Part shown: in pieces, positions 1,172 through 56,027 of the stretch
How positions within the stretch are numbered: position 1 is the stretch's first letter
How the letters are laid out: each line of letters opens with the position of its first letter
Source: a virus
Taxonomy: Duplodnaviria; Caudoviricetes
Length of the DNA: 56,027 nt
IMG/VR virus record: IMGVR_UViG_3300037258_000287
Coordinates: 1 to 56,027 of that record
Strand: one strand, 5' to 3'
Position numbers and translations under genes: made by a program
Notes under the pieces: generated by a model
The model's database searches: none
The model's input: the letters and a program-made list of their open reading frames with translations, nothing else
Told to the model about the DNA's origin: nothing

Positions 1172-4114
1172 ATGCCCGATAATGACGGAACAATTCGCGT
1201 AGGCACGCAAGTCGATACGTCCGGGCTGAAGGCTGGCTCATCCGAATCGAAGGCCATCACCAACGAACTGCTCGCTGACCTTAAGGCGCAATATGCCCAG
1301 GCCACGGCGGCGGTAAAGCAGGCCACTGCAAACATGGCCGAAGCCACGGCCTACATGGGGCAGTCGGCGCGGGCCGGGGTAACCGAAGCAGTAGCGGCGC
1401 TGAAGACTTACGAGCAGGAACTGCTCACCGCACAGCTAGCCCAGTCCCAAGTCAAAGCGTCGATGGATCTGGCGGTGACCGCTGCGCAAGCTGAGTCTGC
1501 CAGCCTCAATGAGTCTGCGGCAGCGGCCGGGAAGGACGCTGCGGCATCCCTTGAAGACGCCGTCGCTTCGGATCAACTGGCCTACAGCAAGCAAAGAGCA
1601 TCTCTAGCTGCGCGGGCACTCACCCAGGAGATCGGCGGCCCGATGTCCTTCGTTATCGGGCGCGTCGCAGGCGAAAGTGCCGCACTTGGGACGATCCTGG
1701 AAGCGGCATTTCCCGCCGTCGCCGCTGTGGCGTTGGGCGAGGTTCTATTCGAGGTAGCGGGGAAAGTAGAGGCACTGTACGACCGGTTCGTCCTGCTCAA
1801 GGAGATCGAAGAGGAAGTTGCAGCCATCGGAGAGCGTCTCGCCAAAGACACCCAGCGCGTGTGGGATGAGGTAGACAAGTCGATTGAAAAGCGCCTTCGC
1901 GATGAAGGAAAGTACGTTCAGGCCGCGCAGCACGCATTGACCGCCGTTTCTGCCAAGCCCATCGACCTCTCAAATATTCTCAAGACCGAAGAGATTGAGA
2001 AGAAGTTAAAGGACCTTCCGCACCAAGTCCAGGAGGATCTAAAAAAGGCTTTTGGAGGCGGCGTTGAACCCTACCAACTCGGGGAAAAACTGGAGTTCAT
2101 TAATCAGAAGCTCAAGGCTATCGACGAAGAGTCGCAGAAGGTAAAGCAGTCCTTCCAGTCACCGCCTGTTGCGCTTGGCGGATCGCCTGCCGCATCCCTT
2201 GGCGCAGCGAGCCCGCAAACCGAGAATGTCGCAACGAAGATGCTCGACGCGCAGCGGGCCATCTACAATGGCCTGCGAATTGACCTGGAGGCGCGGCAGA
2301 AGGAATATGCCCAACAGATCATCACGGGCAACGCCGATGTAGTGAAGGCCCACGCTGAAGAAGTCACCAAGGCCCAGGAAGCCGCGCGCAAGGCTCAGGC
2401 CGCTGAGCGAGCCATCGAAGAGGGAATACGCAAGGCCGATGAAGAAGCCCTCGCAGACCTGAAGGCCAGCCATCAACTCACCACGCAGGAAGAGATTACG
2501 TTCTGGCAGGAGCGTCTGGCCGATGAATCGCAATACTCCGATAGGGTCCGAGAAATCAAGCGGGCACTGGGGCGCGACTACCAGGAAATAGACCGGCAGG
2601 CTTACGCGCAGCGAGAGAAGGACGCGCGGGAGGGTGCTACCCGGCTTCTCGAAATTATCAACGAGGAAGCGAACGCAGCGCAGGAGACAGGCGGCAAGGC
2701 GGGAGAGCTTTCCTACCTCCAGGATGAGGCGCAGAAGCTGGCTGAGTCGCTCGTCGGTGGCGCGCAGGAAGCGGTTGCGGCCTACGACCGCGTAATGAAG
2801 CAGATTCCGGTAGTGACTCGGGAAGCGGCGGCGGAAGCCCAGCGCAACTTAAAAACCTCGGTAGACGAAATGTACGAGACCTGGGTGGGGTCGGGCAAGC
2901 GAACCATCGAGGAAATTACGGCGTTCTGGCAGGGAGTCCAGCGCACCTACTCAAAGAACGAAGCCCTGGTAAAAGAGTCCATCAAAAGGATAGCCGAAGA
3001 GCAGCAGAAGGCTATAGAACAGGCCCAAAAGCTTGCCAACCTGCGAATCAAAGGGCAAGAGGAAACTCAGGTTGGCGGCCTCGAACAGCAGCGCGCCGTC
3101 GTTGAGCGGGGAGCCGCACTCAATCCCGCATCGCAAACGACCGCCGGACGCGTCGCCGAAATGGAAGCAATGCGGCAGATTGACAAGCAGGAGTCTGATG
3201 CGAGAATTGCCGCTGAAGATCAGACCCTGAAGCAATTGGTGGAGTTCTATAAACAGAATTCCTCCGAGTACCAAGCCGAGCTGAGCAAGATGGCCACGGC
3301 CGCGACGTCTGGCGATCTTGTGGCCGTCGACGCCGCGCAGAAGCGCCTAAATGAGATGGTCGCGATTTACAAGCGCGACACTGCCGCGTATCAGGCCGAG
3401 CTGAACAAACGGAATCAACTAACGCAGCAGGCCGATCTGAAGCAGTATCAGGACACGACCAGGATTATCCAGGCGCAGCAGCAGGAGTGGAACTCGTTCT
3501 TCAACACCTTCAATAACGGTTTCACTCAAGCGATCAACAAGGCTCTCACCGGGCAGCAGAGCTTTGGAAAATCGATGCAGCAGCTCTACAACCAACTGGT
3601 AGAGCAGGCGATCACCTACGAAGCCAAAAAGTACCTGCTCGAACTTGAAGGCTTCCTGAAAAAGAAGATCCTCGGGACGCAGGTGGCGGCGGCGATGACG
3701 GCTTCGAATGTGGCGCAGGCGCAGAGCTATGCAGGCCTCGCTGCCACCACGGAATTTACATTTGCGCTTGCCGATTCCGCGGGCGATTTACCATATGCAA
3801 CCGCCATGGCCGGGGCCGCGCTTGGGATCGCGGAAAGTTACGCCAGCCTCGCGGCCTTCGAGCAGGGTACGAGCTACGTTCCCAACACCGGCATTGCCTT
3901 AGTTCACCAGGGCGAGCGAATCTCCTCAGCAGCCGACAACAAAAAGATCACGGAAGCCCTTTCCGGCGGTGGATCGAGCACACGCGGAGACACCAACTAC
4001 ACCCTGCACTACTCTCCCCAGTATCACGGCTCGACTCCCCCACCGAATCAACAAGCAGACGCCGCTCATATGCTGCGGCTCACACGGCAAGCTACCCTCG
4101 GACTCCACACTTAA
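1172..4114 (+). CDS. Tape measure protein
   Basis: 980 aa, Ala/Glu/Gln-rich helical; C-terminal FEQGTSYVPNTGIALVHQGERI motif; position after chaperones. Confidence 0.9.
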   Translation: MPDNDGTIRVGTQVDTSGLKAGSSESKAITNELLADLKAQYAQATAAVKQATANMAEATAYMGQSARAGVTEAVAALKTYEQELLTAQLAQSQVKASMDLAVTAAQAESASLNESAAAAGKDAAASLEDAVASDQLAYSKQRASLAARALTQEIGGPMSFVIGRVAGESAALGTILEAAFPAVAAVALGEVLFEVAGKVEALYDRFVLLKEIEEEVAAIGERLAKDTQRVWDEVDKSIEKRLRDEGKYVQAAQHALTAVSAKPIDLSNILKTEEIEKKLKDLPHQVQEDLKKAFGGGVEPYQLGEKLEFINQKLKAIDEESQKVKQSFQSPPVALGGSPAASLGAASPQTENVATKMLDAQRAIYNGLRIDLEARQKEYAQQIITGNADVVKAHAEEVTKAQEAARKAQAAERAIEEGIRKADEEALADLKASHQLTTQEEITFWQERLADESQYSDRVREIKRALGRDYQEIDRQAYAQREKDAREGATRLLEIINEEANAAQETGGKAGELSYLQDEAQKLAESLVGGAQEAVAAYDRVMKQIPVVTREAAAEAQRNLKTSVDEMYETWVGSGKRTIEEITAFWQGVQRTYSKNEALVKESIKRIAEEQQKAIEQAQKLANLRIKGQEETQVGGLEQQRAVVERGAALNPASQTTAGRVAEMEAMRQIDKQESDARIAAEDQTLKQLVEFYKQNSSEYQAELSKMATAATSGDLVAVDAAQKRLNEMVAIYKRDTAAYQAELNKRNQLTQQADLKQYQDTTRIIQAQQQEWNSFFNTFNNGFTQAINKALTGQQSFGKSMQQLYNQLVEQAITYEAKKYLLELEGFLKKKILGTQVAAAMTASNVAQAQSYAGLAATTEFTFALADSAGDLPYATAMAGAALGIAESYASLAAFEQGTSYVPNTGIALVHQGERISSAADNKKITEALSGGGSSTRGDTNYTLHYSPQYHGSTPPPNQQADAAHMLRLTRQATLGLHT

Positions 4115-5730: not shown

Positions 5731-6600
5731 TTAGCGAGCCTGCCCCGTCTTTTCTGGCGATGCCTCCAGGATCGCTGACATAAGCGCTTGACGTTTGAGC
5801 GGCGGCATACCGGCAAGCCGGGCCTTCCACCGGGCCTTCATCTTTTTCATTTTCTCGCGCTCCCGGAAATTCTCCCCAAGATACCGGTAGTCGTGAAGTT
5901 CCACCGGCTTGGGATAGTTGTACCAGAGGCACTCCGTGGCGCGCTTGTTGCCCCGCGTCGTCACCTCGAATTGCAGCAAGTTCCAGCCCGGCAGGCCGTC
6001 GCGGTACATCTGGGAGTCGTAGCCCGAAATCATCACGCGAGCCTTCATCTTCCGGATGACTCGCAATAAATGGCGATGATCCCGATCGGGCATTTCATAT
6101 TCGTATAGCCGGCAGGTCCGCGTGCTCATCAAGTAGGGCGGGTCGCAGTAGACCAGCTCGGTTCCCCGGAAGTCGTAGGACTCCAGGAACTCGATGCCAT
6201 CGCCGCGCTTGATGGTGAGCGATCGCGGATCCAGCATCGCCGGAAATACCGGGCGCCGCCGGCGCGTATCCCCAGAAACGTCGATTCTGCCGGCGGCATC
6301 GCCGGAAATGGAGAGCGCGGCCGTAATCGCCGCGGATGGCGAGGCCACCAGGTTGGGACTCCATCCGTGCGAGATGCGGGAAAACGCCGCTGCAGGATCG
6401 ATCTTTCCGGCGAGTAGCGATCGCCATTCGTGGATTACCTCGGAAGACAGGTCGATGCCGATCGTCTTTTCGGCTGCGCGCTTCAACCGCAATATCGAGC
6501 CACTCCCCAGGAAGGGTTCGATGTAAATATCGTGCGGCGGCATGAGGTTGATTAGCCGCCAATAAGTACCGCACCAGCTCTTTCCGCCCGGATAAACCAT
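5731..6600 (-). CDS. DNA adenine methyltransferase (Dam/D12-like, alpha class) with internal insertion
   Basis: YPGGK, EPFLGSGS and DPPY motifs; about 65-aa low-complexity insert; basic C-terminal extension. Confidence 0.9.
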   Translation of the reverse strand: MVYPGGKSWCGTYWRLINLMPPHDIYIEPFLGSGSILRLKRAAEKTIGIDLSSEVIHEWRSLLAGKIDPAAAFSRISHGWSPNLVASPSAAITAALSISGDAAGRIDVSGDTRRRRPVFPAMLDPRSLTIKRGDGIEFLESYDFRGTELVYCDPPYLMSTRTCRLYEYEMPDRDHRHLLRVIRKMKARVMISGYDSQMYRDGLPGWNLLQFEVTTRGNKRATECLWYNYPKPVELHDYRYLGENFREREKMKKMKARWKARLAGMPPLKRQALMSAILEASPEKTGQAR

Positions 6601-26456: not shown

Positions 26457-26499
26457 CCGCCGGCCGTAAATGAAACGCTCATCCCGACTAAGGGAGCAG

Positions 26500-27150
26500 A
26501 TGGACAAGCAGCTCACCGCCGCAATCTACGCCCGCGTCTCGACCAAAGACAAAGGGCAGGACACCGAGAACCAACTCTCGCAGCTCCGGAAGTATGCCGC
26601 GAAACAGGAATGGGAGACCGTCGAGTTTATCGACCATGCCAGCGGAAAGCATGCGGACCGCGACGGCCTCACCAAACTCTTCGAAGCAGCGAGCCGGCGG
26701 GAGATCGATGTGGTGTTGGTTTGGGCTCTTGACCGTTTCACCCGGCAGGGCATCTTTGAGACGTTCGAACACATCGCCAAGCTCTCAAAGTATGGCGTGA
26801 GCTTCGAGAGTTTGACTGAGCCTCAGTTCCGGACCACCGGCGCCACTGGGGAGCTGATGCTGGCGATTGCAGCCTGGATCGCGAAGCAGGAACGCATCCG
26901 GATCAGCGAGCGCACCAAGGCCGGCCTGGCTACCGCACGGGCTAAGGGAAAGATTCTCGGCCGTCCGCGGATAGTGTTCCGCATCGACCTCGCCGAACAG
27001 ATGCGCGCCGCGGGCAAGAGTTGGCGGGCTATCTCTCGAGAACTCGGCATCCCCCACGCGACTATCCGGAAAGCACTTTCGGAGCGGAAAGCATCCCTAA
27101 AACCCGCGAAAAGGGGTGTGCAGAAAACCCCATCGAAACCCCGCCGCTAA
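26500..27150 (+). CDS. Small serine recombinase (resolvase/invertase)
   Basis: YARVST catalytic Ser, LDRFTR, ERIRISERTKAGL...G..LGRP, C-terminal HTH; alternative start 26470. Confidence 0.93.
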   Translation: MDKQLTAAIYARVSTKDKGQDTENQLSQLRKYAAKQEWETVEFIDHASGKHADRDGLTKLFEAASRREIDVVLVWALDRFTRQGIFETFEHIAKLSKYGVSFESLTEPQFRTTGATGELMLAIAAWIAKQERIRISERTKAGLATARAKGKILGRPRIVFRIDLAEQMRAAGKSWRAISRELGIPHATIRKALSERKASLKPAKRGVQKTPSKPRR

Positions 27151-28287: not shown

Positions 28288-29259
28288 ATGCAATTCGAGC
28301 AACTGCTGAGCGATTTTCAAGAGGCCTACATGCCGCGCCTGGCCGCGCCGACCCGAGCGAAGTACACCTCACTCATCCGGCAACACATCAGGCCCAAGTT
28401 CGCGGATATGGAAGTCGATGCCATCACCACCAAAGTGCTCGACATCTGGCTGAACAGTAAGAACGATCGGCTATCGTGGGCAGCCCGCGCCGACTTGCGC
28501 AACCTCATGTCGTCGATCTTCACCCGGGCGGAAAAGTACGGGACATGGGAAGGCAAGAATCCGGCGCGATATGCCAACCCCGGCCGGCGGGCGCCGAAAT
28601 ATGAGCACTGCAAGCTGACGGTAGAGCAGACGAAGACGCTACTCGCTCACCTGCCCGACGATGTCCGGCTCATCTGTATGGTGGCGCTGTTCTCCGGGCT
28701 GCGAATGAGTGAAGTGATGGGCTTGTGCTGGAAGCATGTGGACTTCTCGCGTGGCCTCTTTCTCATCCGGCAGCGCTACTGGCGCGGAGACATCGGACCC
28801 ACCAAGTCCGAGACATCGGCGCGCGATATTCCATTCGGCGACTTGCGGGAACTGCTGCTGGCGTTGAAACCCGAGGGCAACGTAGACGAGCGCTTCTGTT
28901 TCTCGGTCGAGACGCACGGTTTCGGAGCCGGCCGCGGCGGAGCTTACCGCGAGACCGGACAGACGCGCGATGATCGCTCAATTCACCAGCACTTCCTGCG
29001 TCCCGCGGCGGAAAAGCTGAACATTTATCGCAAAGGCTTTGGCTTTCATGCGTTCAGACGTGAAGCAATCACGGCCGTAGACGAAATATTGGGCTCAATT
29101 CAGGCAATGAAGTTCGCAGGGCACAGTAGTTTAAACGTCACCAGCCGCTACGGGCTCAAAGATCATGCCAAACAGGATCAGGCAGTTAGAAAACTCCAGA
29201 AACCGTATTCGTCTTTGCTTCGCCCTCGAACGAAAAATGTTACTACCAAGCCGAAGTGA
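28288..29259 (+). CDS. int: Tyrosine integrase
   Basis: SGLRMSE (R), TKS (K), HAFRR, GH and SRY catalytic residues; adjacent attP. Confidence 0.93.
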   Translation: MQFEQLLSDFQEAYMPRLAAPTRAKYTSLIRQHIRPKFADMEVDAITTKVLDIWLNSKNDRLSWAARADLRNLMSSIFTRAEKYGTWEGKNPARYANPGRRAPKYEHCKLTVEQTKTLLAHLPDDVRLICMVALFSGLRMSEVMGLCWKHVDFSRGLFLIRQRYWRGDIGPTKSETSARDIPFGDLRELLLALKPEGNVDERFCFSVETHGFGAGRGGAYRETGQTRDDRSIHQHFLRPAAEKLNIYRKGFGFHAFRREAITAVDEILGSIQAMKFAGHSSLNVTSRYGLKDHAKQDQAVRKLQKPYSSLLRPRTKNVTTKPK

Positions 29260-37284: not shown

Positions 37285-37803
37285 ATGCGGACCACTTCAG
37301 CGGTAATACGTAGTCAGATTGCCGTTCTTTTTGCCGATATTGTGCCTGCGATAGCCCGCAGCATAATGCGAAACCTTCCCAGGTCCTTCGAGCGGGAAGA
37401 TTTGGAGCAGGTGGGCAGGCTGGCGTTGCTCGAAGCCGCGCCGCGGATCGAAGCCTTTGCCCGGAAACGGGTCGAGGGAGCCATGCGGGATAGCGCACGG
37501 TTTCAGAGGTACCGGGAGACGCAGCACGCGAGCTTGTCCGGCTTAAAAAAACAGCCGTCTGTTTTAATAGACAGCCGGACACCCCTGGAAATTTTAATCG
37601 ACGATGAAAAGCAGGCCGGCCTGCAGGCCCACATCTGTTCGCTACCTGCGGACCAGGCGCGCGTCATCTCAGAGCGCATGTCAGGCCGCAAGAGGCAAAA
37701 GGGCAGACCATCCCGTGCCGAAGCAGCAGCTCGGGCGGCCGACATCGCGATAGAAGGCGAGGCTGTGGGTGCGCTGAGGGTTTTGCTGGCGCGGGCGGCA
37801 TAG
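37285..37803 (+). CDS. Degenerate sigma70-like factor (FliA-like region 2)
   Basis: IARSIMRNLPRSFEREDLEQVGRLALLEAA...FARKRVEGAMRD; region-4-like LPADQARVI. Confidence 0.65.
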   Translation: MRTTSAVIRSQIAVLFADIVPAIARSIMRNLPRSFEREDLEQVGRLALLEAAPRIEAFARKRVEGAMRDSARFQRYRETQHASLSGLKKQPSVLIDSRTPLEILIDDEKQAGLQAHICSLPADQARVISERMSGRKRQKGRPSRAEAAARAADIAIEGEAVGALRVLLARAA

Positions 37804-37805
37804 GC

Positions 37806-38207
37806 TTGCTACTCGTAGTCTGCATTGACATGGTCGACCCCACGCTAACCGGCATGGGGGATGGCAGAATCAAGGAATTTGAGGATCTTGCCGCTGATCT
37901 GAAACGGCGTCAGATGCCGCTGCCCGTACGATGCTCCGCGCGAGCCGATCTGCTGCTGAAGGCCGGGGAAGCTTGCATTGCCGGCGGCATTACCGGCCCG
38001 ATCCTCAGTTTGGGAGAGTTCAGATACCAATCTCTTCCAGCGGATCACAGACTACAGAGACTATCGGGGTACATCTGGCCCGGCGGCGACCCGTGCGAAC
38101 TCGTCGAGGACGCCGCGGTACCCGCCAACGTTCTCAGGTTCCAGCTCACCTGCATGCGAAATTGGGATCTGAAAAGCGTTGACCTGCAGAGACGAAGAAT
38201 GGGTTGA
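37806..38207 (+). CDS. Divergent stand-alone paralog of a capsid protein subdomain
   Basis: Ungapped alignment to MCP segment TMTPDG...RLASY, 14/77 identities by hand. Confidence 0.55.
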   Translation: MLLVVCIDMVDPTLTGMGDGRIKEFEDLAADLKRRQMPLPVRCSARADLLLKAGEACIAGGITGPILSLGEFRYQSLPADHRLQRLSGYIWPGGDPCELVEDAAVPANVLRFQLTCMRNWDLKSVDLQRRRMG

Positions 38208-38450
38208 TCGATGACTGTAATCATGTGGATCTGCGGAAAATGCCGCGTCACGAACACAGGCGAACGCTGCCCGAAATGCAGACTGTGACCGCAAAGGCGG
38301 GCTGATGATCCCGACGATTGAGGCGATGGACCCGGAGTTTGAAGCCGCGAAACAGAGGCTGCGAGAATACGTGAAGGCCTATCCCGATCAGGCCATGATC
38401 GCTATTTACGGCCTGTACCTCTAAACTGTATTTCGCGCGATAATCGCAGC

Positions 38451-38837
38451 ATGAACCGCCGCGCCTTCTTCGTTGCCACCCTATCCGCCATCTTTGGAAG
38501 GAAGCGTTTCACGGCGTGGCTCAGAACCCGCGGCGCCGACTACTATTCCATCCGGTGGCCTGTGCATGCCCGCAGTTGGGAATTTGGCGTCCATTGCCAA
38601 GAGGCGCTGAACCATTACATGCCGTTTTCGCAAGCCTTCCTGACGAACATTGCGATGCCAATCACCGAAGTGACTGAGGTGCGGATTGATGGCATGCGCC
38701 TCGAACCGGGCCAGTTTTCGGAATCACCCGGCAGGGTGCTCGCCTTTCCCGCGGCAGCAGCGTCGGACGATGTGAGCATCAGCTACAGCTACGGCCCGAT
38801 TCCCGCGGGTTACGGCAAGACGCCGCGCGCTGCATGA
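38451..38837 (+). CDS. Twin-arginine-leader chimera of capsid C-terminus and neck/tube-like segments
   Basis: MNRRAFF leader; 13/38 ungapped identities to MCP C-terminus; further matches to adaptor and tube. Confidence 0.75.
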   Translation: MNRRAFFVATLSAIFGRKRFTAWLRTRGADYYSIRWPVHARSWEFGVHCQEALNHYMPFSQAFLTNIAMPITEVTEVRIDGMRLEPGQFSESPGRVLAFPAAAASDDVSISYSYGPIPAGYGKTPRAA

Positions 38838-39034
38838 CCCGGCGCGGCTTCCTCACCCTACCCCTAGCGGCAAAGGCCCAACAGCAGGCAGACGCCGAAA
38901 AGATTGCCGAGATGGAGGCGGCACTTAAGTTCCTGTGGGACGGCTACCACGTGCAACCCACGGCCATCTACACCCCTGAAGGCCGCATCACCAAAGACGG
39001 TATCGATCCGTGGGGCACGTTTCCCGAGCCTTAA
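38834..39034 (+). CDS. Twin-arginine-leader mini-protein carrying a capsid helix
   Basis: MTRRGFL leader; 11/23 ungapped identities to MCP IVEWDAALKYFWDTYKTGIDRIY. Confidence 0.78.
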   Translation: MTRRGFLTLPLAAKAQQQADAEKIAEMEAALKFLWDGYHVQPTAIYTPEGRITKDGIDPWGTFPEP

Positions 39035-39055
39035 AAACGCGCGATAATCTCGGCT

Positions 39056-39406
39056 GTGCTCAAGGTTGGAAAGTGCGCAAAGTGTCACGGGCTGATGCCG
39101 CTCACGACCCATCACATCATTCCGCGGTCCAAAGGCGGGAAGGGCCTTCCGAATAATACCGTTCTGGTATGTCGCCCCTGCCACGACGAGCTAGATATCG
39201 AAGCTGGCGTGCGGCAGATCCGCAAGGGACCTAAGATGCCCGGCCTTCCTCGGCGGCGGATGCAGTGCCATTCCTGCAATAACACTATCCGAAAGGACGA
39301 ATGGCGAAATGGTCATAGGCTTTGCAGGCCGTGTCAGTGGAAGAAAGAGCGCGCAACATGGGACCGGCTCAAACAGATGCTCGTTGAGGCAGAAGAGCGG
39401 CTCTGA
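39056..39406 (+). CDS. HNH endonuclease
   Basis: CAKC...HHIIPRSKGG...N...VCRPCH plus a second Zn finger. Confidence 0.85.
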   Translation: MLKVGKCAKCHGLMPLTTHHIIPRSKGGKGLPNNTVLVCRPCHDELDIEAGVRQIRKGPKMPGLPRRRMQCHSCNNTIRKDEWRNGHRLCRPCQWKKERATWDRLKQMLVEAEERL

Positions 39407-39464: not shown

Positions 39465-40118
39465 GTGCGCGAGCCCGACGTCCCCGTAACCCTCGAAGAA
39501 AAACCGCCCTCCGACCCGCCATCTATCCCGCCCGAAACCTCCGAACACGAGCTGGCGCACACGGAAACCTCGATCACAGACTATGCCAGGCTCTGCGTCA
39601 AGGCGGCGCAAGATGACGGCTACAAGGAAATAGGTACGGTCCACAACGTATCTTTCTCCGAAGCCTACCAGCCAGTCCCCGAACCCTCACCGCCTGCCAA
39701 ACCCGCCGGGCCTCCGCTTCTCTCTCAAGAGGAATACGACGCCAAGCGCGCCGCGCGGAACGTCGAGCAACTCATCCGCAAAGAGCAAGCCCGTCTTACC
39801 CCTCTTGCCCGCCGCGCCTTCCTCTGCGCACTGCACGAAGCCTGCACAAAAGACATTGCATCGCTTGACGAATCGTACCGCCGGGCGCTGGCGAAGAAAG
39901 AAGAGCTGCTCGCCAAAGCCCGATCGGAAGCATCGCCGGAAAAGGTGAGTCCGGATCCGGATGCATCGCCGGAAACGGCGGGGCTGCAGTCTGCCGGCCT
40001 GCCCGCTATCGACGTGGATGAATCACTCGCGCCCGGCACAGTAGAGTTTCGCGGGCCACGCGGCGCAGGCAAGATCACCGACCTTGTGCCCATTCCACTT
40101 ACTGCGGAGGAACTGTGA
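39465..40118 (+). CDS. Hypothetical Pro-rich protein
   Basis: 217-aa ORF; contains two copies of the 18-bp palindrome. Confidence 0.55.
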   Translation: MREPDVPVTLEEKPPSDPPSIPPETSEHELAHTETSITDYARLCVKAAQDDGYKEIGTVHNVSFSEAYQPVPEPSPPAKPAGPPLLSQEEYDAKRAARNVEQLIRKEQARLTPLARRAFLCALHEACTKDIASLDESYRRALAKKEELLAKARSEASPEKVSPDPDASPETAGLQSAGLPAIDVDESLAPGTVEFRGPRGAGKITDLVPIPLTAEEL

Positions 40119-41102: not shown

Positions 41103-41373
41103 GCGTGCGGATCGAAGCGCTAAAAATAACGCGGGTGGTGAGCATATCGGCTCAGTCCTTGACCGAGGAACACGAGTATTTTCCCGGATGCACCGCTGTG
41201 CTGATAGAGGACGGAAAGATGTGGACGCTGAACTCCCGACGCGAGAAAACCTACTCACGGCCACTGGAAGGACTGCGCGGAATTTCTCTTTGCGCAGTGG
41301 AATATCAGGGCTGGGCACCCGGTTCAGAGCACGGCAAAGTCAGGACAGTCGACGCGGCGGAAAGGTGGCTCGA

Positions 41374-41748
41374 TTGAACCGCATCCAGCTAACCCGGCGG
41401 GAAGTCGACATGATCCAAGGCGTGCTCGACGGCAAATGCAACAAGGACATCGCCACAGCCTGCGGCATCACCGAGAACACAGCGAAGGTCTACCTATCTC
41501 GCCTCTTCGGAAAAGTGGGTGCGCGATCGCGCTGGGAGCTGATGGAATGGGGCCGCGCATGGGCTGAGGCTGAGCGCCGCGTGCAGGCCCAATACCGCGA
41601 GCTGCATCCCGATGCCCTGGAGACTATCCCTACGTTGCAGATCCGCGAGGTTACGGAGTTCGAAGTCATCAAAGCTCTGATCCAAAAGACCGTACTCGGT
41701 ACCGAGCAGCGCGCCGAACTGGCAGTCTCGCTCTTGAGGGACGCGTAG
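41374..41748 (+). CDS. LuxR-type HTH regulator
   Basis: LTRREVDMIQGVLDGKCNKDIATACGITENTAKVYLSRLFGKVGARSR; TTG start. Confidence 0.85.
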   Translation: MNRIQLTRREVDMIQGVLDGKCNKDIATACGITENTAKVYLSRLFGKVGARSRWELMEWGRAWAEAERRVQAQYRELHPDALETIPTLQIREVTEFEVIKALIQKTVLGTEQRAELAVSLLRDA

Positions 41749-44808: not shown

Positions 44809-45444
44809 GTGGAATTTCTCTGGACCGCGCAGCGCGAGGAAGCTGCCCTGCTTGTCGCTCAAGACGAGCTTACCGACGAGCAGATTGCCAAGCGAGTGGG
44901 CGTCACCCGCAACGGCGCAGTAGCGCGATGGAAAGCTACCCCGGCATTCCGCGTCCGCGTCAATGAGCACGTACGGGAATGGGCGCAGAGGTTCCGCGAA
45001 GAGGGGCTATGCGTCAAAGAGCGGCGCGTCAGATCGCTCGTCGATGATTTCGCGGCCACTGAATTAATACTCTCCGAACGCGGTGAGCAGCTTGCGGACT
45101 TCGGGGGGGGATGCTCGACAGGCTTCATCTGCCGCGACTACAAGGGGAAAGACGCAACCCAGGAAGTCTTCTTCTTCGACGCTGCCCTAATGCGAGAGCG
45201 CCGGGCTATCCGGGAGCAGATTGCCCAGGAACTGGGCGACGTCGTCACCAAGCACGAACACACCGGCAAGAACGGTGCGCCGATCGACGTAACAGTAAAT
45301 GCCAGGGAGTTGCTCACTAGCCGAATCGCTAGCATCGCTGAGCGAAGAGGAACGGGACGAAGCGATATCCAGCCTGACGGACGAACAGGCGGCGAGGATT
45401 CTGTACGACTGGCGGGGGACGTTCGCCCGGCAGAACCAGCTTGA
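44809..45444 (+). CDS. terS: Terminase small subunit
   Basis: N-terminal HTH (LTDEQIAKRVGVTR...W); KHEHTGKNGAPI motif; overlaps terL by 146 bp. Confidence 0.8.
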   Translation: MEFLWTAQREEAALLVAQDELTDEQIAKRVGVTRNGAVARWKATPAFRVRVNEHVREWAQRFREEGLCVKERRVRSLVDDFAATELILSERGEQLADFGGGCSTGFICRDYKGKDATQEVFFFDAALMRERRAIREQIAQELGDVVTKHEHTGKNGAPIDVTVNARELLTSRIASIAERRGTGRSDIQPDGRTGGEDSVRLAGDVRPAEPA

Positions 45445-47699: not shown

Positions 47700-47795
47700 G
47701 CCGGCTGGCCAGCATCGACCGTTCAGGCGATATGCGCCGGCGTTCCCCGCTATTTCCGTCGATGCTGGATCCGCGATTCCCCGTTGCGTAGACCA

Positions 47796-49837: not shown

Positions 49838-51754
49838 ATGGCAAAGTTCAAACGATTCGCCCCTATCACGAAGGTCGACGCCGAAAAGCGCGAAGTGTGG
49901 GGCATCCTCGCCGAAGAAGCGGTCGATAAATCGAATGAGATTTTCGACTACGACAAATCGAAGCCCTACTTTCAGAAGTGGAACGGTGAGTTTCAAAAGC
50001 TGACCTGTCAGCTTGATGAGCCGAGCCTCGGTAACCTGCGCGAGATGCACGGCAAGACGGCGGCCGGCAAGTTCACCGCCATGCAGTACGACGATACGGA
50101 CAAATGCATCAGCGTCTGCGCAAAGGTCGTCGACGATGCCGCATGGAAGAAGGTAGCCGAGGGCGTCTACACCGGATTCTCGATCGGTGGCGACTACGTC
50201 GAAACGTTTGCGGACCCGGTCATCAAAGGAGCCAAGCGCTACGTCGCCAACCCTCGCGAAGGGTCACTCGTCGACAATCCGTGCATGTACGGCGCAACCT
50301 TTGAAGTCAGGAAGGCGGACGGCGAGACCGAACTGCGGAAGTTCGTCGGGACCGATCAACTCGCCAAGCTCACCGCCCAGGTGTCCCGTCTGCAGAAGAC
50401 TGTCGAGGGCGCGCTACGGAAAGACGCCAAGACCAAGAAAGTCGCCGGGCACGATCTCCCGGCCAGCGCCTTCCTTATTGTCGGAGACCCGGATAAAACG
50501 GACACCTGGAATCTGCCCGTCGACTTCCCAACCGAGGAAGAATCGAAATCGCACGTGCAGAACGCCATGGCGCGGTTCAACCAGACCGAAGGGCACTCTC
50601 CGGAGGTTGCCAAAAAGCTCATCGCGCACGCCAAGAAACTCGGCATCGACTGCTCGAACTTCGCCGAAGAGTACGTGAAGGCAGCGTTCCCGAACGCCCT
50701 AGCGAAACGCGCAGCCGAGAACAAACTACAGAAAAGCATGTGGGACGTCGGACGCCTCGCGGACGCCCTCTGCACGCTGGCCTGGATGGAGCAGGGTCTC
50801 TCGGACGAAGCGGTCTACGAAGACGACGATTCACCCATTCCCGCCAAGCTCCGCGAACTGCTGCTTCCTCTCCGCCAGATCCTGCTCGACCTGGTCGCAG
50901 AAGAATCGGCCGAGTTGCTGCGTATCGAGGAAGCCAAAGCGGAAGCCGGCAAAGCGGCCGGCGCCGACCAAACCCTAAACAAACGAAAGGAGGTGGTCCC
51001 AATGACCACTCAATCACTTCAGAAGAGCCTGGAAGCAGGCACAGCAACGCCCGAGGAAGTCAAAAAAGCTGCCTCCCTGATCAAGAAACAAGCCTCCCAC
51101 ATCGAAAAGCTCGAAAAGGCCCATGAGAAGATGTCCGACGCCCACGACAAGATGGGCGAGCACATCGAGGGCATGAAAGACTGCATGGGCATGTCGAAAG
51201 CCGCGGACGGCGACCACATGAAGGGCCACATGCAGGGTCTCGCCAAGAACCATGTGACCCTCGGCGACTCGATGGACGACGCGGCCGGTTACCTCGAAGA
51301 CATGAAGGAAGAAGCCGAGAGCGTCGACGACCAGGGCACGCAAGGTCCGGCAAAGTTCGCCGTGGCGCGCCTCGAAAAGCGGCTGAAGCGCGAACACGCA
51401 CGGGAAATCGCGAAGCTCCAGGAAGGGCAGAACGATCTCACTAAACTGCTCACCAAGTTCATCGAGGTGCAGACTGGAATCGCCGATCCTCCCGCCCGCA
51501 CGCCGGCGCGCACCGCCGTAACGGTCGAGAAGACGGCGGACGGAGGCACCGGTGTCGGCGCCATCATTACACCCGGCGCTGGAGCCCCCGCGGCGGCTGC
51601 TGCTACCGAGCTAAATAAGTTCGTCGACGCGTCCGGCATGCCGAATCCCGACTTTGTCGACACCCCCGAAGCCCGCGGCACAGCCTTCGCCAAGGCAGCG
51701 AAAGCGATCCCGATGGAACGTGGGAACCCCTTCCCCAGCAACAAGGCCGCCTAG
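49838..51754 (+). CDS. Prohead protease fused to scaffold
   Basis: GNLREMH, GVYTGFSIGG, EGSLVDNP motifs; coiled-coil C-terminus; internal start at 51002. Confidence 0.85.
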   Translation: MAKFKRFAPITKVDAEKREVWGILAEEAVDKSNEIFDYDKSKPYFQKWNGEFQKLTCQLDEPSLGNLREMHGKTAAGKFTAMQYDDTDKCISVCAKVVDDAAWKKVAEGVYTGFSIGGDYVETFADPVIKGAKRYVANPREGSLVDNPCMYGATFEVRKADGETELRKFVGTDQLAKLTAQVSRLQKTVEGALRKDAKTKKVAGHDLPASAFLIVGDPDKTDTWNLPVDFPTEEESKSHVQNAMARFNQTEGHSPEVAKKLIAHAKKLGIDCSNFAEEYVKAAFPNALAKRAAENKLQKSMWDVGRLADALCTLAWMEQGLSDEAVYEDDDSPIPAKLRELLLPLRQILLDLVAEESAELLRIEEAKAEAGKAAGADQTLNKRKEVVPMTTQSLQKSLEAGTATPEEVKKAASLIKKQASHIEKLEKAHEKMSDAHDKMGEHIEGMKDCMGMSKAADGDHMKGHMQGLAKNHVTLGDSMDDAAGYLEDMKEEAESVDDQGTQGPAKFAVARLEKRLKREHAREIAKLQEGQNDLTKLLTKFIEVQTGIADPPARTPARTAVTVEKTADGGTGVGAIITPGAGAPAAAAATELNKFVDASGMPNPDFVDTPEARGTAFAKAAKAIPMERGNPFPSNKAA

Positions 51755-51831: not shown

Positions 51832-51865
51832 ATTGGCCGCGGCAAACCAGGAGAACACCACCCCC

Positions 51866-53350
51866 ATGCACGATCTCATTCAGCAAACACTCGAACGCCT
51901 CAACCAGGTGACTGGGCTTGCCAAGGCCGGTATCACCACCGGAACCGGGCTGGTCTACTACGACCTCGAAGCCGAGGCCAAACGTCAGTACCCTGTCATC
52001 GCCCCCATCCGGAAACGCATGCCGCGTATCGGAAAAAAGGAGGCCGGACAAGGCCTCGCGGTCCACTGGAACTACATCTCAAACCCCAACACTCAGGGCG
52101 TCCTCGCTATGGTTGGGCAGGGGCAGCGCGGCGGCCAGATCACTCCCACGGTGGTCTCGAAGCTCGCAACCTACGTAGGGATCGGCCTCGAAAACGTGGT
52201 GACGTGGGAAGCCGAGTACGCAGGCGAAGGGTACGACGACATTCGCGCCCAGGCGCAGCGCATGACGCTCGACTCGCTCATCCTCGCCGAAGAGCCGCAG
52301 CTCCTGTGGGGCAACGCCTCTCTTTCCTTTGGCACTACCCCGACCCCGGCCGGCACGCAAGCCACGGTGACCGGCGGATCACTCGCGAACGGAACCTATT
52401 ACCTCTATTGCGTGGCGCTCACCCTGCAGGGCTACAATTACGCGCTGCTACAGAGCCCCGTCGCAGTCGTCCCCGTCGTGACCCGCACCAACGCGGGCGT
52501 CAATTCCACCACCACCATCAACGGAGGAGTGGCGCAGATCTCCGCGGCATCGACCGGAGTCACCACCACCGGCTCGAACAACGCCATCAACGCGACCGTT
52601 ACGGCCGTCAAAGGCGCGGCCGGCTATGCCTGGTTCGTCGGATCTTCCGCCGGCGCCGGCAATGCCTTCCTGTACGCCGTCACCAGCCTGAACCTCGTGA
52701 CTATCCTCTCGCAGCCCGTCACCGGCCAGCTCGCAAACTACGCAGGGTCGACCACCGACTACAGCGCCAACCCGCTGGCCTTCGATGGCCTCGTCACTCA
52801 GCTCTGCGAAGCGAATGGCTATTTCAATTCGCTGAACGGCGCGACCATGACGCCCGATGGCGCAAACGGCATCGTCGAGTGGGACGCAGCTCTCAAGTAT
52901 TTCTGGGACACCTACAAGACCGGCATCGACCGCATTTATTGCGGCTCCCAGATCATCCGCGACGCGACTCGCGCCGTAGCCACCGGCTCGGGCAATGCGG
53001 CCATGCGCATCAACCTGCAGAACGACACCGATTCGCTCGGCAATCTGACCGGCTCCATGCGGCTTGCGTCGTACACCAACAAATTCGCTTACAACGGCGC
53101 GATGGATATTCCGATCGAAATCCATCCGAACATGCCGGACGGGCACGTTTTCTTCGATCTCGAGAAAAACCCCTATCCGACCGCCGATATCCCGCTCGCC
53201 CGCGCCGTCCGGACCCGCCGCGATTACTTCATGGTGGTGTGGCCGATCGTCGATCGCACCTGGCAGAACGGGTGCTACGCCGACGAAGTGCTGCAGGTCT
53301 ACGTGCCGTACGGCATGGGCCTGATCTCTAACATCGGACCCGGCATCTAA
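51866..53350 (+). CDS. Major capsid protein with internal beta-sandwich insertion
   Basis: AGGAG RBS; YYDLEAEAK..YPV..PIRKRMPRI, EEPQLLWGN and FDGL motifs; position after scaffold. Confidence 0.9.
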   Translation: MHDLIQQTLERLNQVTGLAKAGITTGTGLVYYDLEAEAKRQYPVIAPIRKRMPRIGKKEAGQGLAVHWNYISNPNTQGVLAMVGQGQRGGQITPTVVSKLATYVGIGLENVVTWEAEYAGEGYDDIRAQAQRMTLDSLILAEEPQLLWGNASLSFGTTPTPAGTQATVTGGSLANGTYYLYCVALTLQGYNYALLQSPVAVVPVVTRTNAGVNSTTTINGGVAQISAASTGVTTTGSNNAINATVTAVKGAAGYAWFVGSSAGAGNAFLYAVTSLNLVTILSQPVTGQLANYAGSTTDYSANPLAFDGLVTQLCEANGYFNSLNGATMTPDGANGIVEWDAALKYFWDTYKTGIDRIYCGSQIIRDATRAVATGSGNAAMRINLQNDTDSLGNLTGSMRLASYTNKFAYNGAMDIPIEIHPNMPDGHVFFDLEKNPYPTADIPLARAVRTRRDYFMVVWPIVDRTWQNGCYADEVLQVYVPYGMGLISNIGPGI

Positions 53351-53497: not shown

Positions 53498-54418
53498 ATG
53501 GCCTCTCCTGTCATCGCGAACTTTACGCCTGCTTCCGCCGTTGCAGGCGGAGCGGGCTTTACCCTGACAATAAACGGGCAGAATTTTGACAGTGCAGCGG
53601 CGGTGTACTGGGGTTCAACCGCCCTTACAACGACCTTCGTAAATTCGGGGCAGCTCACCGCGGCAGTCACTTCCGGACTCATCGCCAATCCCGGCGTGGT
53701 GCAGCTCACGGTGCTGTCTCTCGGGATCGTTTCCGGAACTGGGGGCGCGCCCTCCATCTTCGCTATTCCCTCGCCTCCGAACGCGATAGACCTTGCAACG
53801 CTCTCTCAGGTGAAGGGCTACCTGTACACGGTCCAGGGGACACCGGCGGATGACTACGTTTTACAGTGGCTCACCACGTCGGCAAGCCAGTATCTGCTGA
53901 GCCAGACGCACCGGGCGTCGCTGAACTCGGTTTCGACGCAGACCGAGCCCTACAACGGCACCGGACAGCCTCAGATCACAACCCGCGAGTTTCCCATCAC
54001 CGCGGTGCAGTCGGTAGTGATCAACGGATATAGCGTGCCGGCGACCCCGACGACAGGGCCGCAAGCATACTTGCAACCCGGCTGGGCGATCGGCTTGAAT
54101 GGCACCAGCATCGTGCTATCGAGCGGCGGCACTGGATCCTGGTACCCCGGCTATGGCGTGCCCTCGGTATTCCCGCGGGGCATCCTGAACGTGGTCATCA
54201 GCTATTCGGCGGGCTACGACGGGATTCCCTTCGATATCAACGAAGCCTGCGTGCAGTTGATTGGGCAGAACTACAAACGCCGCGGGTGGATCGACGAAGC
54301 ATCACGGGCGTTCGCAGCCGGCGGCGGCCAGACCACCTATCGCAACTGGGACGCGCCAACACAAGTCCGCAAGGTGATCAACGATTACTCGCGACGCTGG
54401 GGCGCGGGTGGCGCGTAG
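53498..54418 (+). CDS. Head-tail adaptor with N-terminal IPT/TIG domain
   Basis: PVIANFTPASAVAGGAGFTLTINGQNF...TTFVNSGQLTA, then DLATLSQVKGYL...ISYSAGYDGIPFDINEAC. Confidence 0.82.
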   Translation: MASPVIANFTPASAVAGGAGFTLTINGQNFDSAAAVYWGSTALTTTFVNSGQLTAAVTSGLIANPGVVQLTVLSLGIVSGTGGAPSIFAIPSPPNAIDLATLSQVKGYLYTVQGTPADDYVLQWLTTSASQYLLSQTHRASLNSVSTQTEPYNGTGQPQITTREFPITAVQSVVINGYSVPATPTTGPQAYLQPGWAIGLNGTSIVLSSGGTGSWYPGYGVPSVFPRGILNVVISYSAGYDGIPFDINEACVQLIGQNYKRRGWIDEASRAFAAGGGQTTYRNWDAPTQVRKVINDYSRRWGAGGA

Positions 54419-55542: not shown

Positions 55543-56027
55543 ATGGCCGCACCCACCACCGGCGGAACGCCCTATATTCAATTCGGCAGCGCGCTGCTGT
55601 ACCTCAATCCGAACGGGGGAAACCTCGCGACGAACCCGACCCCGACCAAACCCTACACGATCCAGAATTTCGAGGTCGACCAGTCGGGAGACCTGAAGGA
55701 CCTGCGCGGGCAGAGCCAGTATCCCGACGACACGGCCCGCTCCGACATCAAGTCCAGCTTCAAATTCTCTATCGGACGCACGGATTACTTCCTCCTGAAC
55801 CAGAACGTGTGGGCGGACACCACTGTGTCAGGGGGCACCTCAATTTCTCCCAACGAGGCGCACACTGTGCCTGCGTCTTCGGTCTATACCGTCACGATCA
55901 CGCCTCCTGCTTCCGGCGTCTTTGTCGCTGACCTCGGGGTAACGTACGCGGGCCTCGGAGACCTCGAAAAGGTGAATAGCGTGACGGCCGCCGGGCAGTA
56001 TAGCGTCAACGCCTCAACCGGCGTCTA
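55543..56027 (+). CDS. Tail tube protein, 5' part (continues at 1..440)
   Basis: AGGAG RBS; IQFGSALLY...DLKDLRGQSQYPDD; open to window end. Confidence 0.8.
   Translation, partial: MAAPTTGGTPYIQFGSALLYLNPNGGNLATNPTPTKPYTIQNFEVDQSGDLKDLRGQSQYPDDTARSDIKSSFKFSIGRTDYFLLNQNVWADTTVSGGTSISPNEAHTVPASSVYTVTITPPASGVFVADLGVTYAGLGDLEKVNSVTAAGQYSVNASTGV

What the first reader, a model, noticed from the sequence alone, without database searches (positions are those of the whole stretch)
38451..38837. Tat-leader protein stitched from capsid, adaptor and tail-tube segments
After MNRRAFF, DYYSIRWPVHARSWEFGVHCQEALNHYMPFSQAFLTNI matches the MCP end DYFMVVWPIVDRTWQNGCYADEVLQVYVPYGMGLISNI (13/38, no gaps; both preceded by RTR). 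Next, MPITEVTEVRIDG matches adaptor FPITAVQSVVING (7/13). Then VLAFPAAAASDDVSISYSY matches tube VYTFFSADASAAVLISYSY (11/19; both preceded by GQ.S). One 128-aa protein therefore displays pieces of up to three virion proteins, in genome order. Inference: a multi-epitope mimic, possibly condensed from a related phage's head-tail operon.
Basis: partly seen in the sequence, partly recalled or inferred. Interest (0 to 1): 0.9.

Follow-up and report, generated by a model that had tools for sequence, protein, structure and literature searches.

The report
Small phage gene built from capsid fragments
A small gene in a soil phage is assembled from the tail end of a capsid-protein gene plus a short piece resembling the head-tail adaptor, behind an export-like leader, and its neighbour carries another capsid piece; the claimed tail-tube piece is not supported.

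Summary
ORF 38451-38837 (128 aa) exists in a complete 56-kb temperate phage genome and looks coding. Residues 24-68 are truly homologous to the C-terminus of the SU10/HK97-type major capsid protein (MCP): BLASTP E 5e-10, phrog_13692 E 3.5e-8, 0 of 1000 shuffles. Colinearity with MCPs starts at residue 6, so the "Tat leader" overlies MCP-derived sequence. Residues 62-118 resemble the central beta motif of gp6-like head-tail adaptors (custom HMM 8.2 bits, 0 of 5000 shuffles; top non-self hit in the six-frame window, E only 0.37). The tail-tube match is within noise (rank 4, E 4.2), and the adaptor motif VxVSYxAGY explains it about as well.

New here:
- The next ORF (38834-39034, ATGA overlap) has a similar RR leader plus a different MCP segment (16.4 bits, 0 of 5000 shuffles).
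- One homologue (P0006, about 34% identity) shares leader, MCP block and adaptor motif.
- A 17-nt motif abuts the start codons of this ORF and of the HNH endonuclease gene downstream.

No Tat profile matches. Structure and complex predictions were uninformative.

Best reading: an exapted chimeric gene from an MCP-adaptor junction fragment of another phage lineage. Function is unknown, possibly envelope-targeted.

The parts
38434..38450 (+). 17-nt motif CGCGCGATAATCGCAGC ending at the start codon of the ORF; contains a -10-like GATAAT 6 nt before the ATG
   Evidence: Only two exact copies of the 12-mer in the window, both ending at or 1 nt before a start codon. The promoter or leaderless-start reading is inferred.
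38451..38837 (+). Target ORF, P0001, 128 aa
   Evidence: GC3 0.72, like confident genes. First start codon after the upstream stop. Its stop overlaps the next start (ATGA).
38451..38519 (+). Residues 1-23: RR-AFFVATLSAIFG-RKR leader-like segment
   Evidence: Conserved with P0006 (0 of 5000 shuffles) and similar to the ORF2 leader (7 of 5000). No Tat profile hit. Residues 6-23 still align ungapped to MCP 'FFTKTLPYPLSNVPNTVQ'.
38520..38654 (+). Residues 24-68: homologue of the last ~45 residues of SU10/HK97-type major capsid proteins
   Evidence: 7 of 8 family-invariant MCP residues kept.
38655..38804 (+). Residues 69-118: shortened head-tail-adaptor-like beta region (MPITEVTEVRIDG ... SPG ... 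VSISYSYGPIP)
   Evidence: Adaptor HMM. tblastn hits of P0001 and P0006 fall in adaptor genes of L011 and L040. Moderate support only.
38736..38795 (+). Residues 96-115: the claimed tail-tube piece
   Evidence: Not above genome-wide noise. Equally explained by the adaptor VxVSYxAGY motif. Absent from P0006.
38834..39034 (+). ORF2 (P0030), 66 aa: MTRRGFLTLPLAAKA leader, then residues 19-47 homologous to an internal MCP segment (own MCP near aa 344-369)
   Evidence: MCP HMM 16.4 bits, 0 of 5000 shuffles. E 5.2e-4 in the six-frame window. tblastn hits at the same place within or beside the MCP match of the loci listed, best E 5e-5.
39038..39054 (+). Second copy of the 17-nt motif (15/17 identical), 1 nt before the HNH start codon
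39056..39406 (+). HNH endonuclease gene
   Evidence: PF01844 E 3.9e-9, phrog_7370 E 2.2e-11.
51833..53350 (+). Resident major capsid protein gene (P0002); aa 459-502 (53207-53338) is the counterpart of P0001 residues 24-68; 52862-52939 is the counterpart of the ORF2 piece
   Evidence: phrog_13692 E 9.9e-94. SU10_MCP link..
53498..54418 (+). Resident head-tail adaptor gene (P0003; TIG domain plus phrog_442)
   Evidence: Motif FPITAVQSV at 53990.
55543..56027 (+). Tail tube gene, 5' part (continues after the 127-nt terminal repeat to 440; 265 aa)

Best explanation
ORF 38451-38837 is a real small gene of chimeric origin. A fragment spanning the junction of two neighbouring virion genes was captured in the early/regulatory region of this temperate phage. 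The fragment comprised the last ~63 codons of an SU10/HK97-type MCP gene and the central beta-hairpin part of a gp6-like head-tail adaptor gene. It came from a phage lineage other than the resident one. The sequence between the MCP end and the adaptor middle was lost, which fused the two in frame (inferred).

The first ~23 residues are still colinear with MCP sequence. They have been remodelled into an RR-hydrophobic-basic segment. That segment is shared with the overlapping downstream ORF2, which carries a different MCP segment, and with the only known homologue, P0006.

The pair P0001-ORF2 and the adjacent HNH endonuclease gene are each preceded by the same 17-nt motif. This suggests common control, possibly leaderless transcripts (inferred).

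Most likely mode of action (inferred, low certainty): the leader takes the protein to or across the inner membrane by a Tat-type route. There the capsid- and adaptor-derived part acts as a small accessory protein in phage-phage or phage-host interplay. The tail-tube segment is not a separate component.
For: Gene-like:
- GC3 0.72.
- ATGA overlap with ORF2.
- The 17-nt motif ends at its start codon, and 1 nt before that of the Pfam-supported HNH gene; only 2 exact 12-mers occur in 56 kb.

MCP origin:
-.
- 26 phmmer hits at E <= 1e-3 in 1.84 billion representatives: P0001 itself, P0006, and 24 whose match ends at or near the C-terminus of MCP-family proteins or fragments.
- Ungapped colinearity from residue 6, 27/63 identical to a prophage MCP.
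- 7 of 8 MCP-invariant residues kept.

Not a recent self-duplication: the resident MCP ranks 104 of 108 in identity to the fragment (25%, against 39% for the best).

Adaptor part.

Conserved architecture: leader, MCP block and adaptor-like block are each similar between P0001 and P0006, with 0 of 5000 shuffles each (alignment).

Neighbour ORF2: an RR leader plus a second MCP segment. These two are the only plus-strand ORFs in the window that start M-x-RR-x-F-[FL].

P0002 is a capsid protein: SU10_MCP hit in 1 of 10 family members (E 2.5e-5), and Atlas structural rows with TM 0.67-0.81 by row (0.48-0.52 by query) to clusters in which 50-89% of members carry SU10_MCP.
Against: - The family has only two members. 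The genomic context and DNA of P0006 could not be obtained, so selection (dN/dS) was not measured.
- The adaptor similarity is short, and its genome-wide E-value is only 0.37. Pfam and PHROG adaptor profiles do not hit.
- No Tat-signal profile matches. There is no clear AxA site in P0001, and the hydrophobic stretch is only 12 residues.
- The AlphaFold model is poor (pLDDT 52.7), as is the Atlas model (0.44).
- No Shine-Dalgarno sequence, although most genes of this phage lack one.
- No sigma-70-like promoter was found by the scan.
- Function is entirely inferred.
Confidence: 0.5

Rival explanations
1. Non-functional debris. The region holds decaying scraps of a foreign head module left by illegitimate recombination, perhaps dragged along with the adjacent HNH homing endonuclease. 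The ORFs are open by chance and make no useful product.
For: - The pieces are out of order: MCP end, adaptor, then an earlier MCP segment.
- ORF2 and P0001 are orphans in 5.8 billion clusters.
- MCP 3' ends are demonstrably duplicated as non-coding repeats in other members of this MCP family: 4 of 117 loci, and 7 copies in L105.
- A GIY-YIG-like endonuclease ORF (recognised by eye, not profile-tested) sits directly after the MCP in L009.
- An HNH gene lies 220 nt downstream.
Against: - P0006 keeps the same three-block architecture at ~34% identity with an open frame and in-frame indels only. By my estimate, two open frames of 110-128 codons at 59% GC after that much neutral divergence have odds of about 4e-4.
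- MCP-invariant residues are retained.
- GC3 is coding-like.
- The start-proximal motif is shared with a bona fide gene.
- No homologue of this HNH lies near an MCP in the 120 loci.
Confidence: 0.25
2. The whole protein is a diverged, truncated paralogue of a head-tail adaptor or head completion protein. The MCP likeness of residues 24-68 is secondary (gene conversion or convergence).
For: - BLASTP aligns residues 4-84 with adaptor residues 95-180 (E 0.007).
- tblastn puts residues 26-97 on Microbacterium phage adaptors, 11 of 14 records but at E 1-9.
- The Atlas structural best row is a head completion protein cluster, TM 0.56 over residues 16-127, from a model with pLDDT 0.44.
- The spacing of 'ATLSAI' and 'PITEV' equals that of 'LTTLANV' and 'YPVSAV' in the L006 adaptor (by eye).
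Against: - The MCP match is stronger by many orders of magnitude and extends colinearly to residue 6.
- Pfam Phage_connect_1, HCP and phrog_442 do not hit.
- The adaptor HMM gives only 0.4 bits in residues 39-57.
- The Foldseek search of my own model found nothing at E <= 0.001.
Confidence: 0.08
3. One reading: a three-part display of MCP, adaptor and tail-tube epitopes in genome order, acting as a multi-epitope mimic condensed from a head-tail operon.
For: The counts are right. The tube motif vYTfaaaDanakvlisYtyt is conserved in the tube family and matches residues 96-115 (5.2 bits, 3 of 3000 shuffles).
Against: - The tube hit ranks 4th among non-self six-frame pieces, E 4.2.
- BLASTP finds nothing.
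- P0006 lacks the segment.
- The adaptor motif explains the same residues.
- No other head-tail family leaves a trace in 35-42.5 kb.
- No binding or mimicry was shown.
Confidence: 0.05

Closest known systems
C-terminus of SU10-type (HK97-fold) major capsid proteins, PHROG family phrog_13692
   Same: Residues 6-68 are colinear with the last ~63 residues, and 7 of 8 invariant residues are kept.
   Different: Only about 13% of the MCP is present. The N-terminal part is remodelled to an RR-hydrophobic segment. It is fused to non-MCP sequence and lies in the early region, 13 kb from the head genes.
gp6-like head-tail adaptors / head completion proteins (Pfam Phage_connect_1 PF05135, HCP PF24163; phrog_442)
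   Same: The motif order PIxxVxxVxIDG ... SPG ... VxISYxxG..P matches the central beta region of adaptors of this phage family.
   Different: About 25 residues shorter between the motifs. It lacks the flanking helices. Curated profiles do not match.
Orphan 3'-end modules beside polymorphic toxin genes (rhs/cdiA orphans; recalled), and the MCP-3'-end repeat arrays seen here in prophage loci L092, L100, L105, L110
   Same: A short 3' piece of a main gene is copied elsewhere and can serve as a recombination handle.
   Different: Those copies are near-identical, mostly non-coding and adjacent to the MCP. P0001 is old (25-39% identity), translated in frame with other sequence, and far from the MCP.
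Twin-arginine (Tat) signal peptides
   Same: Polar residue-RR-x-F-F/L, a short moderately hydrophobic h-region and a basic c-region. The consensus and the 'Sec-avoidance' idea are recalled, not from a call.
   Different: No match to PF10518 or the NCBIfam Tat models. RR sits at positions 3-4. There is no AxA in P0001. The segment is derived from MCP coding sequence.
Capsid-derived interference proteins of phage satellites (for example MCP-homologous Ccm of cf-PICIs; recalled)
   Same: Capsid-gene-derived sequence used outside the helper's own head module.
   Different: Those are full HK97-fold proteins acting in the cytoplasm. Here there are only fragments, with a leader, and no evidence of action on capsids.

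Membership tests
SU10/HK97-type major capsid protein (phrog_13692) | Profile match over most of the ~490-position family model | tested here: not met
   Only profile positions 451-490 of 491, and 433-472 of 474 of my HMM.
SU10/HK97-type major capsid protein (phrog_13692) | Conserved C-terminal residues (Y, W-P, R, G, Y, L, P of alignment A2) | tested here: met
   7 of 8 invariant and 4 of 4 nearly invariant positions are identical in P0001.
gp6-like head-tail adaptor (PF05135 / PF24163 / phrog_442) | Match to the curated family profiles | tested here: not met
   No hit at E <= 1 in Pfam or PHROGs.
gp6-like head-tail adaptor (PF05135 / PF24163 / phrog_442) | Central beta motif PIxxVxxVxIDG followed by VxVxYxAGY..P | tested here: inconclusive
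   Custom HMM 8.2 bits, 0 of 5000 shuffles. Sub-motifs: 4 of 3000 and 12 of 3000 shuffles. Genome-wide E 0.37.
gp6-like head-tail adaptor (PF05135 / PF24163 / phrog_442) | N- and C-terminal helices flanking the hairpin | tested here: not met
   The HMM aligns only positions 65-107 of 204, plus 0.4 bits at 184-202. The protein ends 10 residues after the second motif.
Tat signal peptide | Twin-arginine motif followed by two hydrophobic residues near the N-terminus | tested here: met
   N-R-R-A-F-F at residues 2-7. D-R-R-G-F-F in P0006. T-R-R-G-F-L in ORF2.
Tat signal peptide | Match to curated Tat-signal profiles (PF10518; NCBIfam Tat model) | tested here: not met
   No hit at E <= 10, with whole proteins or N-terminal peptides. 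HMMER filters may drop such short hits.
Tat signal peptide | Signal peptidase site (small residues at -3/-1) and Tat-dependent export | not testable with these tools
   IFG-R in P0001, VGA-K in P0006 and AKA-Q in ORF2, read by eye. No SignalP/TatP was available.
Tail tube protein (phrog_8234) | Profile or pairwise similarity above chance | tested here: not met
   BLASTP none at E <= 100. Tube HMM rank 4 non-self, E 4.2.
Free-standing homing endonuclease cassette | Endonuclease gene adjacent, and flanks homologous to its target gene | tested here: inconclusive
   An HNH gene lies 220 nt downstream with the same upstream motif. No homologue of this HNH lies next to an MCP in 120 loci.

The most novel reading that the evidence does not exclude
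P0001 and ORF2 form a two-gene set of leader-bearing proteins built from conserved A-domain pieces of a capsid protein (plus an adaptor hairpin). A temperate phage keeps them as capsid mimics: membrane-tethered or exported decoys that interfere with assembly of competing phages of the same capsid family, or with a host sensor of capsid protein. Its own capsid C-terminus has diverged from the mimic (rank 104 of 108).
Probability: 0.12. Interest if true: 0.8.

Novelty: new variant of a known kind. Interest (0 to 1): 0.5.

Why it matters
Phage genomes are mosaics, but new genes are rarely caught being made from pieces of essential virion genes.

Here two adjacent small genes each reuse a different conserved segment of the capsid protein behind a similar export-like leader. 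One of them has a distant homologue with the same build. If they are functional, this shows a route by which structural-gene scraps become accessory proteins, and it gives a candidate capsid mimic to test.

If they are debris, the locus still documents how capsid 3' ends are copied around. The arrays of capsid 3'-end repeats with toxin/immunity-like cassettes found in related prophages show the same thing.

Tried and rejected
- Close relatives: none found. Megablast of 36-42 kb against phages gave nothing. Five viral-contig scans (alignment A1, P0006, ORF2 and two neighbour genes) gave no relative. The genome-contig scan with A1 gave none.
- Word-indexed protein search: P0001 found only itself among 11 candidates. 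The A1 profile found only P0001 and P0006 among 201. ORF2 found only itself.
- Metagenome scan: 36 loci, all with the match inside query residues 26-99. Of the three running past residue 68 (L009, L022, L024), I inspected L009 and L024. Both are MCP 3' ends read through the stop.
- tblastn over 120 loci: no second P0001-like gene within about 10 kb of an MCP.
- PDB sequence search: nothing meaningful for P0001 (best E 0.25) or for the MCP.
- AlphaFold of the MCP with 10 sequences: pLDDT 51.6, C-terminus unresolved. AlphaFold of P0001: pLDDT 52.7. Foldseek against BFVD: 0 matches at E <= 0.001.
- Complex prediction of P0001 (residues 17-128) with ORF2 (residues 17-66): no verdict, score 0.00.
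- Sequencing runs: no RNA holder is listed. One run is the probable source. A second soil run holds identical low-depth pieces. No variants were seen, so no pN/pS could be computed.
- ORF 37806-38207 gave weak tblastn hits inside MCP genes (best E 0.014), but the MCP HMM did not confirm them. Dropped.
- The read-through match past the resident MCP stop codon is meaningless sequence.
- Literature: two full-text searches, of which I saw the listings and abstract starts only. Neither showed a paper on capsid-fragment proteins with Tat leaders. No paper was read.

Full report
**What the window is.** The window is a complete viral contig of 56,027 bases with a 127-nt direct terminal repeat, and CheckV completeness is given as 100. 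It is a temperate tailed phage.
- Recombination genes: tyrosine integrase at 28288-29259 and a serine invertase-like gene at 26470-27150.
- Head and tail genes: small and large terminase at 44809 and 45299, portal at 47784, a protease-like protein at 49838, capsid protein at 51833-53350, head-tail adaptor at 53498-54418, and a tail tube gene from 55543 that runs across the terminal repeat to 440. The 980-aa ORF 1172-4114 is read as the tape measure by size and position only (no PHROG hit). Sources.
- P0002 is a capsid protein of the SU10/HK97 kind. One of 10 family members hits Pfam SU10_MCP (E 2.5e-5). The ESM Atlas model aligns to three clusters in which 50-89% of members carry SU10_MCP, with TM 0.67-0.81 by row and 0.48-0.52 by query.
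- The MCP family is common in prophages of Hyphomicrobiales and Acidobacteriota: 229 confirmed stretches, of which 80 loci were kept. No tRNA genes were found.

**The ORF.**
- GC at codon positions is 0.57/0.54/0.72, like confident genes.
- It starts at the first start codon after the upstream stop.
- It lies 26 nt after a short upstream ORF. Its stop overlaps the ATG of a 66-codon ORF, 38834-39034, here called ORF2.
- An HNH endonuclease gene follows at 39056-39406. Sigma-factor-like genes lie at 37285 (weak: Sigma70_r2 E 0.0071, below the Pfam cut-off) and 41188.
- Most genes of this phage lack a Shine-Dalgarno sequence, so its absence here says nothing.

**Capsid piece.** This is real.
- BLASTP of P0001 against the resident MCP gives 16/45 identities for residues 24-68 against MCP 459-502, E 5e-10.
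- phrog_13692 matches at its last 40 positions, E 3.5e-8.
- Smith-Waterman z is 18.6, with 0 of 1000 shuffles reaching the score.
- An HMM of 117 MCPs scanned over all 1469 six-frame pieces of the window gives E 6.9e-15.
- phmmer against 1.84 billion representatives found 26 proteins at E <= 1e-3. They are P0001 itself, P0006 (below), and 24 whose match ends at or near the C-terminus of MCP-family proteins or fragments.
- In a Brevundimonas phage the match is the end of the 512-aa protein between the portal region and the head-tail connector.
- Against a Stellaceae prophage MCP the alignment runs ungapped from residue 6, with 27/63 identities. So the hydrophobic "leader" overlies the MCP stretch LFFxxxLPYP.
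- Seven of eight family-invariant MCP residues are kept.
- The fragment is not a recent copy of the resident gene. Over about 69 aligned residues the resident MCP is 25% identical and ranks 104 of 108. The best, Methylobacterium and Stellaceae prophage MCPs, reach 39%.

**Adaptor piece.** Support is moderate.
- Pairwise it is weak: 18 of 1000 shuffles reach the score.
- tblastn of both P0001 and P0006 lands on the motif YPVxAVxxxTVDG of adaptor genes in loci L011 and L040.
- An HMM of the adaptor family (23 aligned rows; 18 hit ORFs in the loci) aligns P0001 residues 62-102 to positions 65-107: 8.2 bits, 0 of 5000 shuffles. It aligns P0006 to the same positions: 5.3 bits for the C-terminal segment, 0 of 5000 shuffles.
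- In the six-frame window scan the P0001 piece is the top non-self hit, but E is only 0.37.
- The adaptor consensus shows a colinear pattern: PIxxVxxVxIDG, SPG, then VxVSYxAGYxxxP. P0001 has this pattern with about 25 residues missing between the motifs.
- The second motif scores 7.1 bits, with 12 of 3000 shuffles reaching it.
- Curated Pfam and PHROG adaptor profiles do not hit.

**Tube piece.** This is not supported.
- BLASTP finds nothing at E <= 100.
- A tube-only HMM gives 5.2 bits, with 3 of 3000 shuffles reaching it.
- In the six-frame scan it ranks fourth among non-self pieces, E 4.2.
- P0006 has no such segment.
- The adaptor motif covers the same residues.
- HMMs or single-sequence profiles of 13 other structural genes, including TerL, portal, protease, two head-tail proteins and the putative tape measure, find nothing in 35-42.5 kb (best E 0.34).

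**A second capsid fragment next door.** ORF2 begins MTRRGFLTLPLAAKA.
- Its residues 19-47 match MCP HMM positions 312-340, near aa 344-369 of the resident MCP: 16.4 bits, 0 of 5000 shuffles. In the whole six-frame window E is 5.2e-4.
- tblastn hits fall at the same place within or beside the MCP match of the loci listed, best E 5e-5.
- P0001 and ORF2 are the only plus-strand ORFs in the window that start M-x-RR-x-F-[FL].
- Their leaders are similar at the protein level (7 of 5000 shuffles) and in DNA (13/16).

**A homologue.** P0006 is 110 aa and comes from a 2.8-kb assembly contig.
- It is the only other family member.
- Its leader, MCP-like block and adaptor-like block are each similar to those of P0001, with 0 of 5000 shuffles each and in-frame indels only.
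- This argues for a maintained gene rather than debris. Its DNA and context could not be obtained.

**Start-proximal motif.** CGCGCGATAATC occurs exactly twice in the window. One copy ends 6 nt before the P0001 ATG and the other 7 nt before the HNH GTG. The repeat extends to 17 nt with 15/17 identities. It contains GATAAT at the distance expected for a -10 box of a leaderless transcript. That reading is inferred, and the sigma-70 scan found no promoter.

**Leader.** The sequence has a polar residue, RR, two aromatic residues, 12 mostly uncharged residues and then RKR. This fits the recalled Tat pattern, including a basic c-region. However, no Tat profile matches, and export was not tested.

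**Structure and binding.** All attempts were uninformative.

**Reading.** The best-supported account is a chimeric gene exapted from a captured MCP-adaptor junction fragment of another phage lineage. It has a remodelled N-terminus and is paired with a second leader-plus-MCP-fragment gene. Function is unknown. I lean towards an envelope-targeted accessory protein, at low certainty.
- The main rival is recombination debris. It gains some weight from the capsid 3'-end repeat arrays seen in related prophages.

Noticed in passing
L105:3546-11599 (also L110, L092, L100): In 4 of 117 prophage loci of this MCP family the last ~96 nt of the MCP gene recur downstream on the same strand. L105 has 7 copies at 69-100% identity, spaced 1.26-1.87 kb. 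The repeats separate cassettes that encode proteins with a shared N-terminus (MTRLPRILYAVPQLPHVHLEIAKAI...) and variable C-termini, followed by DUF2019 proteins. A Tle1-like phospholipase gene lies on the other strand. It looks like an orphan-module array of a polymorphic toxin/immunity locus anchored on the capsid gene's 3' end.
   Followed up: partly
L009:862-1521: An ORF with a GIY-YIG-like N-terminus (recognised by eye, not profile-tested) lies directly after the MCP stop codon in a metagenome contig.
   Followed up: no
window 6222-6289 and 47710-47777: A 68-nt inverted repeat, 84% complementary, with arms 41 kb apart. One arm is inside the minus-strand DNA methyltransferase gene (5731-6600). 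The other lies just upstream of the portal gene.
   Followed up: no
window 39809-39824: A third copy (15/16 nt) of the leader-coding DNA CCGCCGCGCCTTC(T/C)TC lies in frame inside ORF 39465-40118, giving an internal RRAFL.
   Followed up: no
window 53498-53716 and 55543-440: The adaptor carries an N-terminal IPT/TIG domain (E 2.2e-10). An iterated search seeded with the tube protein drifted into four adaptor ORFs, which suggests a shared Ig-like domain between tube insertion and adaptor N-terminus.
   Followed up: no
window 37285-37803 and 41188-41748: Two sigma-factor-like or LuxR/GerE-type regulator genes flank the region (Sigma70_r2 E 0.0071; GerE E 1.8e-13). This hints at phage-specific promoters.
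   Followed up: no
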